In this document: positions 19,783 through 63,796 of the stretch, piece after piece
How positions within the stretch are numbered: the stretch's first letter is position 1
How the letters are laid out: every line of letters begins with the position of its first letter
Source of the DNA: Escherichia coli
Lineage (GTDB): Bacteria; Pseudomonadota; Gammaproteobacteria; Enterobacterales; Enterobacteriaceae
Assembly: GCF_050920415.1 (NCBI RefSeq)
Contig: NZ_CP169309.1
Reading direction: 5' to 3' (one strand)
Length of the DNA: 64,000 bases
Made by a program: the position numbers and the translations under genes
The notes under the pieces: model-generated
What the model was told of the DNA's origin: nothing
What the model saw: the letters and a program-made list of their open reading frames with translations, nothing else
Database searches by the model: none

Positions 19783-19941
19783 CTCAACAACTCCATAATG
19801 TTAACTTATGTGTCAATTCTACCATTTTGCGATCTGTGTTACATTTCTGTCTTATACAAAATGTATTTGTTGATTTACATCAATGTTGTGAAAATGCGGT
19901 TTGTGGATACTACAACCAACGAAACAACGGAGGGTAAGACA

Positions 19942-20181
19942 ATGAAAGGCTTAAAAAATATCGCTATCGCTGCAATGGTTGCTGGTCTGGTTGGTTGTGC
20001 TGATATGCCGAAACGTGAATGCACGGCAATTTATCAAACTGGCGGTAATGAGTATGCGGTTGCAGTCTTCGGTGTCGCGGATGTTGGTGGTCACAAAATG
20101 GCTAAGGCTGGGTATCCATTTAATTTTCAATGGGTGAGCGTTGACCACTTCAAGAAAACGGATTGCCCGGAATTGAATTAA
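19942..20181 (+). CDS. small lipoprotein (moron, opposite strand to tail genes)
   Basis: 79 aa; GGAGGG RBS; signal peptide with lipobox LVGC; own upstream promoter-like element. Confidence 0.5.
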   Translation: MKGLKNIAIAAMVAGLVGCADMPKRECTAIYQTGGNEYAVAVFGVADVGGHKMAKAGYPFNFQWVSVDHFKKTDCPELN

Positions 20182-20771
20182 TCATAGGCGTCGGTTTTAA
20201 TGGCGGTGATAGCGTTCCCGTGGTTAATATAGCCAGTTGGTGCATATACGCTACCCGCCTGGATGCCGTAAATTCTAGTTGTGCTTCCGTTGTAATAAGC
20301 CGCCGCATAAATGGATGCACTACCCTGTCCAACGAGCGCCCCTAACAATTGGGGGCAAATAGCATAAGAACCGGATAACGTTTGGTCTATATAAATTCCG
20401 CCGCTTGATCCTGCCGTCCCAACGGTTACAAGGTCTGTTAATATTCTTGATTCATTAGTTAGCACTAGTTCCCCGGAAGCGTTCCAAATAGCCATTCCCC
20501 ACTTCGGCAGCGATGGCGGGAAAATAGTGAAAATATACGCATACCCCGAACCAGCCCCGATTAGTAAAGTTGATGGGCTATTTCTATAAGCTAATACAGC
20601 GGCGGCGGTAGTGCTTTTTACAAATACCATCACGGGCTTCCCGGATGGCACGGCGACGGTTTGATTCGATGATGTTAATGTCACCCGTTCATATAAGCAA
20701 AGCGGCGTTGCTTCCGGTGTAACGAAAATATTCCCGTTACTTAATCTCAAATAAGCTCCGAAGGTTGCCAT
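20178..20771 (-). CDS. hypothetical phage tail-associated protein (MATFG paralogue, 197 aa)
   Basis: start overlaps stop of upstream paralogue (TAATG); shares N-terminal MATFG with 20771..21082; Gly/Ser/Thr/Ala-rich. Confidence 0.4.
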   Translation of the reverse strand: MATFGAYLRLSNGNIFVTPEATPLCLYERVTLTSSNQTVAVPSGKPVMVFVKSTTAAAVLAYRNSPSTLLIGAGSGYAYIFTIFPPSLPKWGMAIWNASGELVLTNESRILTDLVTVGTAGSSGGIYIDQTLSGSYAICPQLLGALVGQGSASIYAAAYYNGSTTRIYGIQAGSVYAPTGYINHGNAITAIKTDAYD

Positions 20772-21082
20772 TAAGCCACCTCCGCAAATATAACAATTTC
20801 ACACTGTGACGCGGGCCATATATTAGCGCCTACCGTATCCCCTGCCGAGGAAATGGAAACAGTACCACCCGAAATAGTGATCTTTCTGCGCGTCGTTGAC
20901 GTTGTGCCATAATCAAGCGTCATCCCATAAGATAATTTGCATCCGGTCGGCACTGTAAAGGTATATGTGCCGGATACCTGCCCGGATGATAAGGAAATAT
21001 AACCAACCACAACGGAAGGTTTAATTCCATAGTTATTAGCATTGCCGCTGGCGTCCCAGGTCGCTACGCCGAAAGTAGCCAT
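20771..21082 (-). CDS. hypothetical phage tail-associated protein (MATFG paralogue, 103 aa)
   Basis: AAGGAGG RBS; directly downstream of J. Confidence 0.4.
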   Translation of the reverse strand: MATFGVATWDASGNANNYGIKPSVVVGYISLSSGQVSGTYTFTVPTGCKLSYGMTLDYGTTSTTRRKITISGGTVSISSAGDTVGANIWPASQCEIVIFAEVA

Positions 21083-21134
21083 AATTACACCTCCTTAATA
21101 AAAAACTGAGGCCGAACAAGTCGGCCCCTTAATT

Positions 21135-62296: not shown

Positions 62297-62299
62297 TCC

Positions 62300-63400
62300 A
62301 TGAAGTGGTTTAAGCATGATAGCGATGCGAACCGCGATGAAAAGCTCCAAAACGTTTTGCTTGATTATGGTCTGGAAGGATACGGGCTTTACTGGTATTG
62401 CATCGAGTTAATAGCTTATGAAGTAGATCAACATAATCTGACATTCGAACTAAAACACGATGCGAGAATTATTGCCCGTAACGTCGGATCAACTCCGAAA
62501 CGTGTAGAAGAAATGATGAGATACTTCATCGAAGTTGGCTTGTTCGATTGCTCGCATGGCGTTGTAAGATGCCTGTCGTTAGCAAAAAGACTTGATCAAT
62601 CAATGGCTTCATCAAAAAGCGAATTTAGGGAAGCAATTAAAAGGCTAAACGTCAAAAAAAATAAAAAGTTAGATAATCCTTTAGTGGAAGTAAATAATTC
62701 ACCAGATACAGAAAAAGAAAAAGAAAAACCATGGCACAACCATGATGCAGCCATGGCACAACCATGTCATAGCCATGGATTAGAAGTAGAAGTAGAAGAA
62801 GAAATAGAAAAAGATATATACACTTCGTGTATTAGCGAAAATGGACAAAAAACGGTCAATCAGGACGGTGTAAGCGAAGCTGCCTTGCGTTGCCTGGCTT
62901 TCTACAACGAAAAGGCAGGATGCAAGTGTCGTGATACTAAGCCATTCATCGAACTACTGACAGAAACAAAAACACGTAAGGCATATACGGAGGAAGAGAT
63001 CACATTAGTAATTGAGTGGGCTTTAACCCAATGGCGTAGCCGTGGTGGAGTACCTAAGCCTATCAACATTTGCCGGGTAACTAAGTTTGATGGGTATCTG
63101 GCTGATGCTGAACAATGGCGCAAGTTATCAGCTACTGTAAACGCTGCCGACGTGGTGGGAGAATTTAACAGCACGTTTGACGGCCTGTTACCACCTGCCG
63201 AACTGGATCGGGATCTTGAACGCAAGATCTATGCGTTCACTGACTACCTGAAAGACAAAAGTATTAACGGCTTTGTCGCCTACTTCGAAACGTTCAAAAA
63301 CACGGCTTCAGATTTTTACTTCGGCAATGGCTTCACTGCGACACTTGATTTTCTGCTTAAACCAAAAACGCTACGTGATACACGCGCTGGCGTTCTTTGA
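62300..63400 (+). CDS. putative phage replication initiation protein (DUF4373-like N-terminal domain)
   Basis: 366 aa; N-terminal MKWFKHDSDANRDEKLQ...YGLEGYGLYWYCIE pattern typical of Lin1244/DnaD-like phage replication proteins. Confidence 0.5.
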   Translation: MKWFKHDSDANRDEKLQNVLLDYGLEGYGLYWYCIELIAYEVDQHNLTFELKHDARIIARNVGSTPKRVEEMMRYFIEVGLFDCSHGVVRCLSLAKRLDQSMASSKSEFREAIKRLNVKKNKKLDNPLVEVNNSPDTEKEKEKPWHNHDAAMAQPCHSHGLEVEVEEEIEKDIYTSCISENGQKTVNQDGVSEAALRCLAFYNEKAGCKCRDTKPFIELLTETKTRKAYTEEEITLVIEWALTQWRSRGGVPKPINICRVTKFDGYLADAEQWRKLSATVNAADVVGEFNSTFDGLLPPAELDRDLERKIYAFTDYLKDKSINGFVAYFETFKNTASDFYFGNGFTATLDFLLKPKTLRDTRAGVL

Positions 63401-63533
63401 CCAACCACGATCCGCAAAAATCCAAAATTACCCATAAAACAACCTCACCAGCGAGCTAAATAGCATATGCTGCTACACTTGCTTACCTTTTTGCGATTAG
63501 CTCGTTATAGAGCGTTACAGAGAGGATTTTAAA

Positions 63534-63635
63534 ATGGACGGTAAACACGTTTTCGCCCTGGCCTTTGCCATCGCTGCGGCAATCGCTGTTAACGTCGCTT
63601 TGTTCGGCGGTTTGTACCTTCTCGTTAATCCATAA
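63534..63635 (+). CDS. small hydrophobic peptide (33 aa)
   Basis: AGAGGA RBS; single TM helix. Confidence 0.3.
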   Translation: MDGKHVFALAFAIAAAIAVNVALFGGLYLLVNP

Positions 63636-63796
63636 CCTACCTACCAGTCTGTAAATCGAAAATTAGCCACCTGATAGCGCCTCTGGCGCAAAAAAGACAC
63701 TGCACCCTTACAAGTGGGTTACGCGGTGGAATTTTGCGTTGTAGCGCGTTTTACGGAAAATAAATATACATTCTGTAAACATGAGGAAGTAACATT

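What the first reader, a model, noticed from the sequence alone, without database searches (positions are those of the whole stretch)
19850..63780. Recurrent CATTTTGTA(T/A)A motif at prophage promoters
The motif or its complement occurs in at least ten prophage intergenic regions: about 19858, 26583, 28137, 31401-31455, 47775/47798, 53231/53296, 60285, 60965/60985, 61772/61811 and 63768. It is usually placed so that TGTA(T/A)A… forms an extended -10, and it appears as a dyad in the immunity region and at 47775. I did not see it in the host part of the window. It could be an operator shared by the repressor or a phage activator.
Basis: seen in the sequence. Interest (0 to 1): 0.5.

Follow-up and report, generated by a model that had tools for sequence, protein, structure and literature searches.

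The report
Dispersed operator sites of prophage repressor
The repeated CATTTTGTA(T/A)A word is real and is most likely the binding site (operator) of this prophage's lambda-CI-like repressor, unusual only in being scattered over about 19 places in the phage genome, tail genes included, rather than confined to the immunity region.

Summary
CATTTTGTAWA occurs 8 times exactly against 0.18 expected.

The word is the inner and right part of a 15-19 bp pseudo-palindrome, (AG)TATMCA-TTT-TGTAWA(CT). It is not a directional promoter element: the centre triplet can flip, and its position relative to -35/-10 hexamers varies.

The prophage belongs to the mEpimmI family (mEp021, MagusPhagus), whose operators are not defined in the one family paper I could read. 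The sites are conserved at orthologous intergenic positions across 44 relatives.

Decisive evidence: other phages that share only the repressor's N-terminal arm and recognition helix carry the same palindrome at classical operator positions around their repressor gene. These are Serratia, Enterobacter and Citrobacter prophages, phage L and an Stx1 phage. A control with a P22-type DNA-binding domain has none.

Best explanation: a Rep regulon of dispersed operators, often overlapping -10 hexamers and often in pairs 22-25 or 34-36 bp apart. Binding itself is inferred, not shown.

Verdict: a new variant of a known kind, of moderate interest.

The parts
19853..19867 (-). Operator-like 15-mer AATACATTTTGTATA, in the divergent gap between the tail-protein gene (17410..19782, -) and a lipoprotein-like gene (+, starting about 19941).
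   Evidence: 23.1 bits. The mEp021 orthologue is a perfect palindrome, TATACATTTTGTATA, at 52944-58. The lipobox ORF is read from the sequence.
26544..26558 (-). Operator-like 15-mer TATACATATTGTAAA. It overlaps the spacer and -10 of the + strand promoter-like site facing the antirepressor island.
   Evidence: 19.0 bits. The promoter-like site is TTGATA-17-TATATT at 26532-26560, 10 of 12 matches. Conserved in mEp021 at 43955-69.
26580..26594 (-). Weaker operator-like site GTGCCATTTTGTTTA, 69 bp upstream of the tail L-like gene (25774..26511, -). It lies 36 bp from the site at 26544-58.
   Evidence: 15.3 bits. An orthologous group is present in 36 loci.
28133..28147 (+). Operator-like site GTTACATTTTGTATA, in the gap between the gpM-like tail gene and a divergent small-gene island.
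   Evidence: 20.1 bits. The core degenerates to CATATTGCATA in about a third of relatives.
28205..28219 (-). Operator-like site AAGCCATTTTGTAAA, upstream of the gpM-like gene (27766..28119, -). It lies between an invariant GTGAAG (28222-28217) and an invariant TATAAT (28199-28194).
   Evidence: 21.8 bits. Nearly invariant in 45 loci. Coordinates.
31425..31439 (-). Operator-like site AAGACATTTTGTATA, 40 bp upstream of the tape-measure gene start (31385). Its right half overlaps -10-like TATAAA/TAAAAT.
   Evidence: 21.7 bits. Core invariant in 38 loci.
31450..31464 (+). Partner site ATACCGTTTTGTATA, 25 bp centre to centre from 31425-39, facing the gp63-like gene (31682..32101, +).
   Evidence: 12.5 bits in the window. 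Relatives carry AATACATTTTGTATA, and TTATACAAAA(T/C)G is invariant.
47772..47786 (-). Weak site GTGCCATTTTGTTAT, 39 bp upstream of gene 47461..47733 (-).
   Evidence: 12.1 bits. Sequence. This region is absent from mEp021.
47797..47811 (+). Site ATGCCATTTTGTAAA, 25 bp from the site at 47772-86 and followed by a G13 run.
   Evidence: 20.5 bits. Sequence.
53228..53242 (-). Site CATCCATTTTGTATA (TATCCATTTTGTATA in relatives, 11 of 12 palindromic). Its right half gives -10 TATACT (53231-53226), with TTGTTC 16 bp upstream. It sits between a terminator and the nutR2 boxA.
   Evidence: 20.9 bits. Alignment of 44 loci. boxA GCTCTTTAA at 53210-53202. Terminator-like hairpin at 53296-53261.
53292..53306 (+). 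Partner site ACGCCATTTTGTAAA on the other side of the terminator hairpin, 64 bp from the site at 53228-42.
   Evidence: 19.5 bits. Conserved in 40 or more loci, with occasional core changes.
56820..56834 (-). Site TATCCGTTTTGTAAT upstream of gene 56564..56782 (-).
   Evidence: 16.7 bits. The mEp021 orthologue is at 16563-77. Sequence.
56844..56858 (-). Partner site TATACATTATGTATT, 24 bp from the site at 56820-34.
   Evidence: 14.2 bits. The mEp021 orthologue is at 16539-53.
60286..60300 (+). Site TTTACATTTTGTATT, overlapping the stop codon of the N-like gene (60299..60589, -) and 10 nt before the next ribosome-binding site. No room for a promoter.
   Evidence: 19.0 bits. Present in 43 of 45 loci. 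The diverged relative L177 has a perfect-half-site palindrome, TATACGTTTTGTATA, at the same place.
60964..60978 (+). Best site, AATCCATTTTGTATA. It abuts the -35 of the PR-like promoter, overlapping it by 2 bp, so it is centred near -41.
   Evidence: 23.4 bits. The block AAAAAAGTATACAAAATGGATTGACT is nearly invariant across 36 distinct sequences. The same geometry is found in L177.
60986..61000 (+). Weak second copy AAAACATTTTGTATG, 22 bp from the site at 60964-78.
   Evidence: 11.3 bits. Most relatives read TATTTTATATGC here, so it is not conserved.
61772..61786 (-). Site AATACATTTTGTGAC between rep and the cro-like gene. It abuts a possible PRM-like -35 (TTGTAT 61771-61766, 15-nt spacer, TATAGG 61750-61745).
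   Evidence: 16.5 bits. C(A/G)TTTTGTGACTTG is conserved in 29 distinct sequences. The promoter reading is my inference.
61807..61821 (+). Site ACGCCATTCTGTAAA, covering the spacer and -10 of the PL-like promoter that reads into nutL and the cro-like gene.
   Evidence: 15.7 bits. Promoter-like TTGACC-16-TAAACT at 61796-61823. GCAAGTTTACA is invariant. boxA at 61902-61910.
63765..63779 (+). Site TATACATTCTGTAAA, 21 bp before the start codon of the next leftward-operon gene.
   Evidence: 19.2 bits. Relatives carry TATACAAAATGTAAA between the same flanks, so only the centre triplet is flipped.
36239..36253 (+). Doubtful site AATACATTATGTATA, over the start codon of the capsid-region gene 35190..36245 (-).
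   Evidence: 16.9 bits. Absent from mEp021 at the orthologous place.
20090..20104 (-). Doubtful site TAGCCATTTTGTGAC, inside the lipoprotein-like ORF.
   Evidence: 15.7 bits. It lies in coding sequence.
61089..61736 (-). rep, the CI-like repressor and candidate binder.
   Evidence: Pfam HTH_3 plus Peptidase_S24. It matches lambda CI structure 3bdn over both domains, E 3e-19. It is 91-100% identical in 44 relatives. Rep021 confers immunity (PMC11893012).
62042..62296 (+). Divergent cro-like small helix-turn-helix gene, a possible second binder.
   Evidence: Only weak Pfam matches to MarR_2 and HTH_36. RefSeq annotators call it a MarR family or HTH protein.
60937..60965 (-). PR-like promoter TTGACT-17-TATATT, upstream of nutR1 and the N-like gene.
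   Evidence: 10 of 12 matches. Both hexamers are conserved while the spacer varies.
26532..26560 (+). Promoter-like site facing the island that carries the KilAC antirepressor-like gene (27162..27410).
   Evidence: Pfam ANT match, E 1.8e-7.

Best explanation
The motif is the operator of the prophage's lambda-CI-like repressor Rep (61089-61736). Each copy is a 15-19 bp pseudo-palindrome, (AG)TATMCA-TTT-TGTAWA(CT), fit for a helix-turn-helix dimer. Usually one half-site is good and the other weaker.

Inferred: in the lysogen, Rep dimers occupy about 19 such sites.
- Near rep they lie over the -10 of the PL-like promoter, and directly upstream of the -35 of both the PR-like and PRM-like promoters.
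- Elsewhere they sit at the separate promoters created by the mosaic genome plan: before nutR2, before the tape-measure, gpM-like, L-like and distal tail genes, and before the opposite-strand islands, including the antirepressor island.
- Because the half-site TGTATACT contains a -10-like hexamer, operator and -10 often coincide.

Sites mostly come in pairs 22-25 or 34-36 bp apart. This suits pairwise cooperative binding through the lambda-CI-like C-terminal domain (inferred).

On loss of Rep, all these promoters would fire. The cro-like protein probably uses the same sites (inferred by analogy).
For: Enrichment and specificity.
- The motif is strongly enriched and confined to the prophage.
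- It is family-specific: 3.7 copies per 10 kb in 44 family tail loci, against 0 in 36 lambda-like outgroup loci.

Dyad symmetry.
- In 16 paralogous groups chosen only by CATTTTG plus TAWA, the unselected left flank mirrors the right half. T at L3 in 12 of 16 (p=1e-4), W at L2 in 15 of 16, M at L4 in 14 of 16.
- mEp021 carries a perfect TATACATTTTGTATA.
- The centre triplet is flipped between the same flanks in relatives.

Location.
- The site's position relative to promoter hexamers varies.
- It is the only element shared by the promoter regions on both sides of rep.
- All 16 strong mEp021 sites fall in annotated intergenic gaps.

The site tracks the repressor's DNA-binding domain, not the rest of the phage.
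- Phages sharing the arm and recognition helix carry 3-5 such palindromes flanking rep: L047/L049, L181 and L184 (each p<=3e-7 against background).
- L177 (Rep 55% identical, same helix) has 14-15 dispersed sites in 20 kb.
- Phage L has them, and so does an Stx1 phage in which the depositors annotated AAATACAATATGTACTT as a putative operator.
- Control loci with a P22-type N-terminal domain but a similar C-terminal domain have none.

The candidate binder.
- Rep is a two-domain lambda CI homologue.
- Rep021 confers group-wide immunity (PMC11893012).
Against: - No binding, footprint or transcript data were available.
- At the strong PR-like promoter the only conserved site is centred near -41. 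From my own knowledge, that is where lambda CI at OR2 activates PRM, so simple occlusion is not evident and the sign of regulation there is unknown.
- Left half-sites are often poor (AAGCCA, ACGCCA).
- Some pair spacings (64 and 72 bp) fit no single geometry.
- The weight matrix also scores in AT-rich unrelated phage contigs, so specificity holds only in an enterobacterial base composition.
- All family members share one Rep, so co-variation cannot be tested within the family.
Confidence: 0.75

Rival explanations
1. The motif is a core promoter element (an extended -10 type) read directly by host RNA polymerase. It is shared because all these phage promoters descend from one another or are tuned alike, with no repressor involved.
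For: - Many copies contain TATACT or TAAACT.
- Most intergenic regions holding the motif have at least one copy pointing toward a downstream gene 40-230 bp away.
- The PL-like promoter TTGACC-16-TAAACT uses the motif as its -10.
- The copy at 53228 lies between a terminator and a nut site.
Against: - TG abuts the hexamer rather than forming TGn.
- Most copies lack any -35 (my reading).
- The flank mirrors the motif, giving dyad symmetry.
- The centre triplet flips between the same flanks.
- Copies occur upstream of a -35, within a spacer, and between a stop codon and a ribosome-binding site.
- Conservation covers CCATTTTG, which RNA polymerase does not read.
- The motif recurs at classical operator positions in unrelated phages that share only the repressor type.
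Confidence: 0.07
2. The site is bound by a different phage regulator. This could be the cro-like protein alone, or an activator that replaces the missing -35 at the dispersed promoters. Rep would bind elsewhere.
For: - Sites at the PR-like, PRM-like and possibly the lipoprotein promoter are centred near -41, a class II activator position.
- Most dispersed promoters lack a -35.
Against: - The small divergent regulators differ between phage groups that keep the palindrome. The window has a weak MarR-like winged helix; L177, L179 and L184 have HTH_3 proteins.
- The Rep N-terminal domain is the constant partner.
- At the tape-measure and PL-like sites an activator centred at -41 would put the transcription start inside the ribosome-binding site or nowhere sensible (my reading).
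- No other repeat is shared by both rep-flanking promoter regions.
Confidence: 0.12
3. The repeats are boundary or linker sequences left by, or promoting, recombination between gene cassettes of this mosaic phage family. They would have no regulatory role.
For: Several copies lie at the junction between conserved tail genes and variable opposite-strand islands. Sequence classes diverge 20-60 bp beyond the copy upstream of the tape-measure gene.
Against: - Only 15-19 bp are conserved, too short for homologous exchange.
- The repeat is palindromic.
- It also sits at the immunity promoters.
- It recurs in classical lambdoid prophages that have no such islands.
Confidence: 0.03

Closest known systems
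Operators of the CI/C2 repressors of Salmonella phage L and of Stx-converting phages (ATACA-N3-TGTAT type)
   Same: - Same repressor clade: N-terminal arm MK..W..LAK and recognition helix T(K/Q)G..(S/G)HWLNGRREP, 47-55% identity over 60 aa.
- Same half-site core, ATACA/TGTAT, with a 3-bp A/T-rich centre.
- Sites lie between the repressor and cro genes and downstream of the repressor gene.
- The Stx1 phage record annotates them as putative operators.
   Different: - Those phages keep the classical two clusters around the repressor gene, as far as the 2-3 kb I examined show.
- Their outer half-site base is A (AATACA or AGTACA) and the helix carries TQG. Here the base is T (TATACA) and the helix carries TKG. 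This may be co-variation, but the sample is small.
- Here at least 13 further sites lie outside the immunity region.
Lambda CI with OR1-3 and OL1-3
   Same: - Homologous two-domain repressor.
- Pseudo-palindromic operators with a consensus and a non-consensus half.
- Adjacent operators about 23-24 bp apart in lambda (my own knowledge), against 22-25 bp here.
- An operator abuts the -35 of the repressor's own promoter.
- Probably a near-leaderless repressor mRNA.
   Different: - The operator sequence is different.
- rep is co-oriented with the PR-like operon rather than divergent from it.
- There are only two sites in the rep/cro-like gap.
- No conserved site overlaps the core of the PR-like promoter.
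- There are many sites in late genes.
Dispersed operator regulons of other temperate phages: P1 C1 operators and mycobacteriophage L5/Bxb1 'stoperators'
   Same: - One immunity repressor with many sites spread over the whole genome, late regions included. Stoperators are described in PMC9283540; P1 C1 is from my own knowledge.
- Some sites here (60286-60300) lie inside an operon, where only a roadblock or loop-anchor role is apparent.
   Different: - Stoperators and P1 operators are asymmetric.
- Stoperators are orientation-biased and bound by a monomer (PMC9283540).
- Here the site is a dyad and the repressor is a lambda-CI/LexA-type protein with an S24 domain.
LexA boxes of the SOS regulon
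   Same: One S24-domain repressor; an AT-rich palindrome containing TGTAT that often overlaps -10 hexamers; many dispersed promoters released together on RecA-dependent cleavage (my own knowledge).
   Different: The half-site polarity is opposite: CTGT-N8-ACAG there, ACA-N3-TGT here. No copy fits the LexA consensus (my reading). The DNA-binding domain is HTH_3, not the LexA winged helix.

Membership tests
Operators of a lambda-CI-type (HTH_3 + S24) immunity repressor | Short dyad-symmetric (pseudo-palindromic) sequence of half-sites suited to a helix-turn-helix dimer. | tested here: met
   - The left flank mirrors the right half: T at L3 in 12 of 16 groups (p=1e-4), W at L2 in 15 of 16, M at L4 in 14 of 16.
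- Perfect or 11-of-12 palindromes exist in mEp021 and at nutR2.
- The centre triplet is reversible.
Operators of a lambda-CI-type (HTH_3 + S24) immunity repressor | Located at the early promoters flanking the repressor gene. | tested here: met
   - 61807-21 covers the -10 of the PL-like promoter.
- 61772-86 abuts the PRM-like -35.
- 60964-78 abuts the PR-like -35.
Operators of a lambda-CI-type (HTH_3 + S24) immunity repressor | The site sequence goes with the repressor's DNA-recognition domain across otherwise different phages. | tested here: met
   Six other phage groups with the same arm and helix carry the palindrome around their repressor gene. A control with a P22-type N-terminal domain has none.
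Operators of a lambda-CI-type (HTH_3 + S24) immunity repressor | Adjacent copies spaced to allow cooperative dimer-dimer binding. | tested here: inconclusive
   Centre-to-centre distances are 22, 24, 25, 25 and 34, 35, 36, but also 64 and 72 bp (coordinates). Relatives show 23-33 bp. Cooperativity itself cannot be tested here.
Operators of a lambda-CI-type (HTH_3 + S24) immunity repressor | Physical binding by the repressor, and repression in vivo. | not testable with these tools
   This needs EMSA, footprinting, ChIP or reporter assays. The one family paper I could read defines no operators (PMC11893012). Valencia-Toxqui 2023 could not be read.
Operators of a lambda-CI-type (HTH_3 + S24) immunity repressor | Confined to two clusters in the immunity region (the classical layout). 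| tested here: not met
   At least 13 sites lie 0.7-42 kb away from rep, including in the tail gene cluster. They are conserved across the family.
Stoperators (cluster A mycobacteriophages) | Asymmetric site, orientation tied to the direction of transcription, bound by a monomeric repressor. | tested here: not met
   The site is a dyad and occurs in both orientations. Rep is a lambda CI homologue. Definition taken from PMC9283540.
Stoperators (cluster A mycobacteriophages) | Many sites across the genome, in short intergenic gaps, that stop elongating polymerase. | tested here: inconclusive
   Dispersal is met. Only 60286-60300, and the site before the HNH gene in relatives, sit inside operons without promoter features. 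A roadblock effect cannot be tested here.
Sigma-70 extended -10 promoter element (TGnTATAAT) | TG at -15/-14, one base before the hexamer, in a fixed orientation and distance to the transcription start. | tested here: not met
   TG directly abuts TAWACT. The orientation and the position relative to genes and hexamers vary.
LexA box | CTGT-N8-ACAG palindrome. | tested here: not met
   No copy fits. The half-site polarity is ACA-N3-TGT (my reading).

The most novel reading that the evidence does not exclude
Rep is more than an on/off switch at two operator clusters. It runs a genome-wide regulon with mixed outputs.
- It represses promoters whose -10 or spacer it covers.
- It may activate promoters whose -35 it abuts, where the site is centred near -41: PRM-like, PR-like, and in this prophage possibly the lipoprotein exclusion gene. 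There the candidate promoter is TTGTTG 19867-72, a 17-nt spacer, and TGtGAAAAT.
- It may act as a transcriptional roadblock or loop anchor at sites inside operons, such as 60286-60300 just after the N-like gene.

That would be a stoperator-like function evolved independently by a lambda-CI-type dimeric repressor in an enterobacterial phage.
Probability: 0.2. Interest if true: 0.6.

Novelty: new variant of a known kind. Interest (0 to 1): 0.42.

Why it matters
- It supplies a missing piece for a recently defined and common group of gut coliphages (mEpimmI). The result is a concrete operator consensus and a map of about 19 candidate Rep sites, which makes the group's genetic switch directly testable with the existing pRep021 plasmid.
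- It shows how a lambda-CI-type repressor can silence a genome that is broken into many transcription units, with tail genes interrupted by opposite-strand islands. This layout is otherwise known from P1 or mycobacteriophages, which use unrelated repressors.
- It gives a simple rule for annotating operators in a wider clade of enterobacterial prophages, relatives of Stx phages included: the repressor arm and helix type goes with the palindrome TATACA-N3-TGTATA.

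Tried and rejected
- Reading the motif as a -35 element. No conserved -10 lies 16-18 bp downstream at any site.
- Host factor sites, from consensus sequences I recalled (IHF, Fis, CRP, TyrR, OmpR, DnaA, LexA). Only partial, inconsistent resemblances, and the motif is family-specific.
- A second motif, AGATCAC, seen downstream of three copies. It is not enriched: 3 against 1.5 expected, and 17 of 100 shuffles reach 3.
- A methylation or restriction site (GTWWAC). It is present in only about half the copies.
- A hairpin or terminator role for the inverted pair at 47776-47811. No U-run follows it.
- A reverse search of viral contigs with the perfect palindrome. Uninformative.
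- A profile search with the 60-aa N-terminal alignment. The viral-contig scan found no new loci and the protein search found only 7 proteins. The full-length search worked.
- The paper on Gp17 antitermination (Valencia-Toxqui 2023) could not be read. P0036 had no contig on record.
- MagusPhagus 40200-41000 did not help with the G13 region.

Full report
OBSERVATION

The word CATTTTGTAWA occurs 8 times exactly in the window, against 0.18 expected from dinucleotide-preserving shuffles. With one mismatch allowed there are 18, against 4.6. CATTTTGTA and ATTTTGTAT are the most over-represented 9-mers of the prophage part.

The left 17.26 kb of the window is E. coli chromosome (fnr, ogt, uspE, ynaI, mppA). 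The prophage is inserted next to mppA and runs off the right end of the window. No exact copy lies in the host part.

WHAT THE ELEMENT IS

The prophage belongs to the mEpimmI group (mEp021, mEp010/013/044/515/554, MagusPhagus), at 81-89% DNA identity. It lies in the reverse orientation to the mEp021 record.

The family paper shows the following (PMC11893012):
- gp15 (Rep021) is a CI-like repressor that confers group-wide immunity.
- Gp17 is an N-like antiterminator with three nut sites.
- gp37 is Q-like.
- No operator or promoter is defined.

In the window:
- rep is 61089-61736 (-), with HTH_3 plus Peptidase_S24 domains. It is homologous to lambda CI over both domains.
- A cro-like small helix-turn-helix gene is at 62042-62296 (+).
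- The N-like gene is at 60299-60589 (-).
- Q is at 51048-51770 (-).

THE MOTIF IS A PSEUDO-PALINDROME, NOT A DIRECTIONAL ELEMENT

I grouped all family occurrences into orthologous sets. This showed that CATTTTGTAWA is the inner and right part of TATMCA-TTT-TGTAWA.
- mEp021 has a perfect TATACATTTTGTATA.
- The nutR2 site reads TATCCATTTTGTATA in most relatives.
- In 16 paralogous groups selected only by CATTTTG followed by TAWA, the unselected four bases to the left mirror the right half: T at L3 in 12 of 16 (p=1e-4), W at L2 in 15 of 16, A or C at L4 in 14 of 16.
- Upstream of the gp12-like gene, relatives carry TATACA-TTC-TGTAAA or TATACA-AAA-TGTAAA between identical flanks. Only the centre triplet turns round.
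- In more distant phages the half-site extends to AGTATACA/TGTATACT. The 'ACT' that makes the motif look like a -10 hexamer is therefore part of the half-site.

SPECIFICITY AND CONSERVATION

A centre-free test required at least 10 of 12 matches to TATACA...TGTATA. It gives 11 sites in the prophage, 0 in the host part, and 6 in 345 kb of lambda-like outgroup tail regions.

A 15-mer weight matrix at 15 bits or more gives 17, 0 and 0 respectively, and 16 in mEp021.

The plain word occurs 3.7 times per 10 kb in 44 family tail loci and never in the 36 outgroup loci.

All 16 strong mEp021 sites fall in annotated intergenic gaps.

Alignments of 29-39 distinct family sequences show the sites as conserved islands in otherwise variable spacers. 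This holds at the immunity region, nutR2, the gpM-like gene and the tape-measure gene.

Exceptions:
- The second copy at 60986-61000 is not conserved.
- The copy at 28133-47 degenerates in about a third of relatives.
- 36239-53 is absent from mEp021.
- 20090-104 lies inside a lipoprotein-like ORF.

POSITION RELATIVE TO PROMOTERS

The position varies, which argues against a core promoter element.
- 61807-21 covers the spacer and -10 of TTGACC-16-TAAACT, which reads into nutL and the cro-like gene.
- 26544-58 covers the spacer and -10 of TTGATA-17-TATATT, which faces the antirepressor island.
- 53228-42 provides TATACT, with a conserved TTGTTC 16 bp upstream, between a terminator and the nutR2 boxA.
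- 28205-19 lies between an invariant GTGAAG and an invariant TATAAT.
- 60964-78 abuts the -35 of the strongest promoter-like site, TTGACT-17-TATATT, and is centred near -41.
- 61772-86 likewise abuts a possible PRM-like -35, and rep appears nearly leaderless (inference).
- 60286-300 overlaps the stop codon of the N-like gene, 10 nt before the next ribosome-binding site. No promoter can fit there, yet the site is conserved in 43 of 45 loci and in the diverged relative L177.

WHO BINDS IT

The palindrome is the only element shared by the promoter regions on both sides of rep.

The decisive test was to look at phages that share only the repressor type. A full-length protein search found a clade with the same N-terminal arm and recognition helix, MK.KW..LAK ... 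G(I/V)T(K/Q)G(G/A)..HWLNGRREP. Their loci show the following.

| Locus | Source | Rep identity | Sites found |
|---|---|---|---|
| L047-L049 | viral contigs | 37% overall, 52-54% in the N-terminal domain | 3 palindromes in the cro-rep gap; a pair 23 bp apart about 2 kb downstream |
| L184 | Serratia prophage | 40% | 3 sites in the 104-bp cro-rep gap, spaced 33 and 26 bp; 2 downstream of rep, one supplying TATACT before a nut-like boxA |
| L181 | Enterobacter prophage | 50% | 1 upstream of rep, 3 downstream |
| L179/L180 | Citrobacter prophage | 50% | sites in the cro-rep gap and downstream of rep |
| L177/L178 | same genome plan as mEpimmI, different cro | 55%, identical helix | 14-15 dispersed sites in 20 kb, with the same -35-abutting geometry |
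| phage L (X94331) | Salmonella phage | 55% over the 60-aa N-terminal domain | AATACA/AGTACA-type sites around c2 |
| Stx1 phage (AP005153) | E. coli O157:H7 | 47% over the 60-aa N-terminal domain | same type of site; the depositors annotate them as putative operators |

Against the outgroup background, the clusters in L047, L049, L181 and L184 each give p<=3e-7. Two loci whose repressor has a similar C-terminal domain but a P22 C2-type N-terminal domain have no such site. They show P22-type operators instead.

The small divergent regulators differ between these groups: a weak MarR-like protein here, HTH_3 proteins elsewhere. The constant partner of the palindrome is therefore the Rep DNA-binding domain.

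A possible co-variation exists: helix TKG goes with TATACA, and TQG goes with AATACA or AGTACA. It rests on only eight phage groups.

MECHANISM

Shown: the sequence anatomy, the conservation, and the association with the repressor type.

Inferred:
- Rep dimers occupy these sites in the lysogen and silence the PL-like promoter and the many separate promoters of this mosaic genome.
- The tail module is interrupted by opposite-strand islands bounded by bidirectional terminators.
- Internal promoters before the tape-measure, gpM-like, L-like and distal tail genes, and the island promoters, each carry a site.
- Sites mostly come in pairs 22, 24, 25 and 25 bp, or 34, 35 and 36 bp apart centre to centre (coordinates). 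This is similar in phase to the 23-24 bp of lambda OR, which I cite from my own knowledge, and suits cooperative binding through the lambda-like C-terminal domain. Distances of 64 and 72 bp do not fit simply.

Open: the sign of regulation at the -41-centred sites (PR-like, PRM-like, and possibly the lipoprotein gene in this prophage), and the role of the intra-operon site at 60286.

COMPARISON AND NOVELTY

The operator type is that of the phage L and Stx-phage CI clade.

The layout resembles the dispersed operators of P1 C1 (my own knowledge) or the stoperators of mycobacteriophages (PMC9283540). Those sites, however, are asymmetric and bound by unrelated repressors.

I therefore file it as a new variant of a known kind: a lambda-CI-type repressor with a genome-wide operator set, in a phage family whose operators were not described in the literature I could read.

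LIMITS
- There are no binding or transcript data.
- The host baseline is small.
- The weight matrix was trained on family sites and also scores in AT-rich foreign contigs.
- One relevant paper could not be read.

Noticed in passing
window 47816-47828: A run of 13 G (C13 on the coding strand) lies in the 108-bp gap between two minus-strand genes, directly beside the operator pair 47772-47811. A homopolymer of this length is slippage-prone and could vary the spacing or the expression of the downstream gene.
   Followed up: partly
window about 17263-17499: Host/prophage junction next to mppA. Matches to E. coli chromosomes stop at 17262 in most genomes and at 17499 in some. This fits the mppA attachment site (motif III) described for this phage family.
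   Followed up: partly
window 27542-27562, 29019-29041, 32109-32125, 32815-32830: GC-rich hairpins that score as terminators on both strands sit at the borders between tail genes and opposite-strand gene islands. One island carries a KilAC antirepressor-like gene (27162-27410).
   Followed up: partly
window 61034-61048: GTTTACGTTTTGGTG lies between the rep terminator (61066-61083) and the PR-like promoter. It is nearly invariant in 36 distinct family sequences and resembles the operator core (CGTTTTG), but it lacks the half-sites. Function unknown.
   Followed up: no
window 19867-19895 and 19941 to about 20180: A lipoprotein-like gene (lipobox LVGC) diverges from the distal tail gene. Its candidate promoter (TTGTTG, 17-nt spacer, TGtGAAAAT) abuts the operator at 19853-67, so a bound protein would sit near -41. 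mEp021 has a different arrangement, with TATAAT directly beside the operator.
   Followed up: partly
window 61719-61733 and 61430-61444: Weak operator-like matches lie inside rep itself: one over codons 2-6 (MKTKW, 9.6 bits) and one mid-gene (13.1 bits). They may be coding coincidences or weak autoregulatory sites.
   Followed up: no
window 36239-36253: A near-perfect palindrome, AATACA-TTA-TGTATA, lies over the start codon of the capsid-region gene 35190..36245. It is absent from mEp021 at the same place.
   Followed up: partly
loci L177, L179, L181, L184, L185, L186 against the window: Repressors with TKG at the start of the recognition helix go with TATACA half-sites. Those with TQG (phage L, the Stx1 phage, the Citrobacter prophage) go with AATACA or AGTACA. 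This may be a protein-DNA co-variation worth a systematic survey.
   Followed up: partly
window 63535-63636: A small hydrophobic ORF (about 33 aa) sits in the 400-bp gap between the replication-protein gene and the next gene, upstream of the operator at 63765-79.
   Followed up: no
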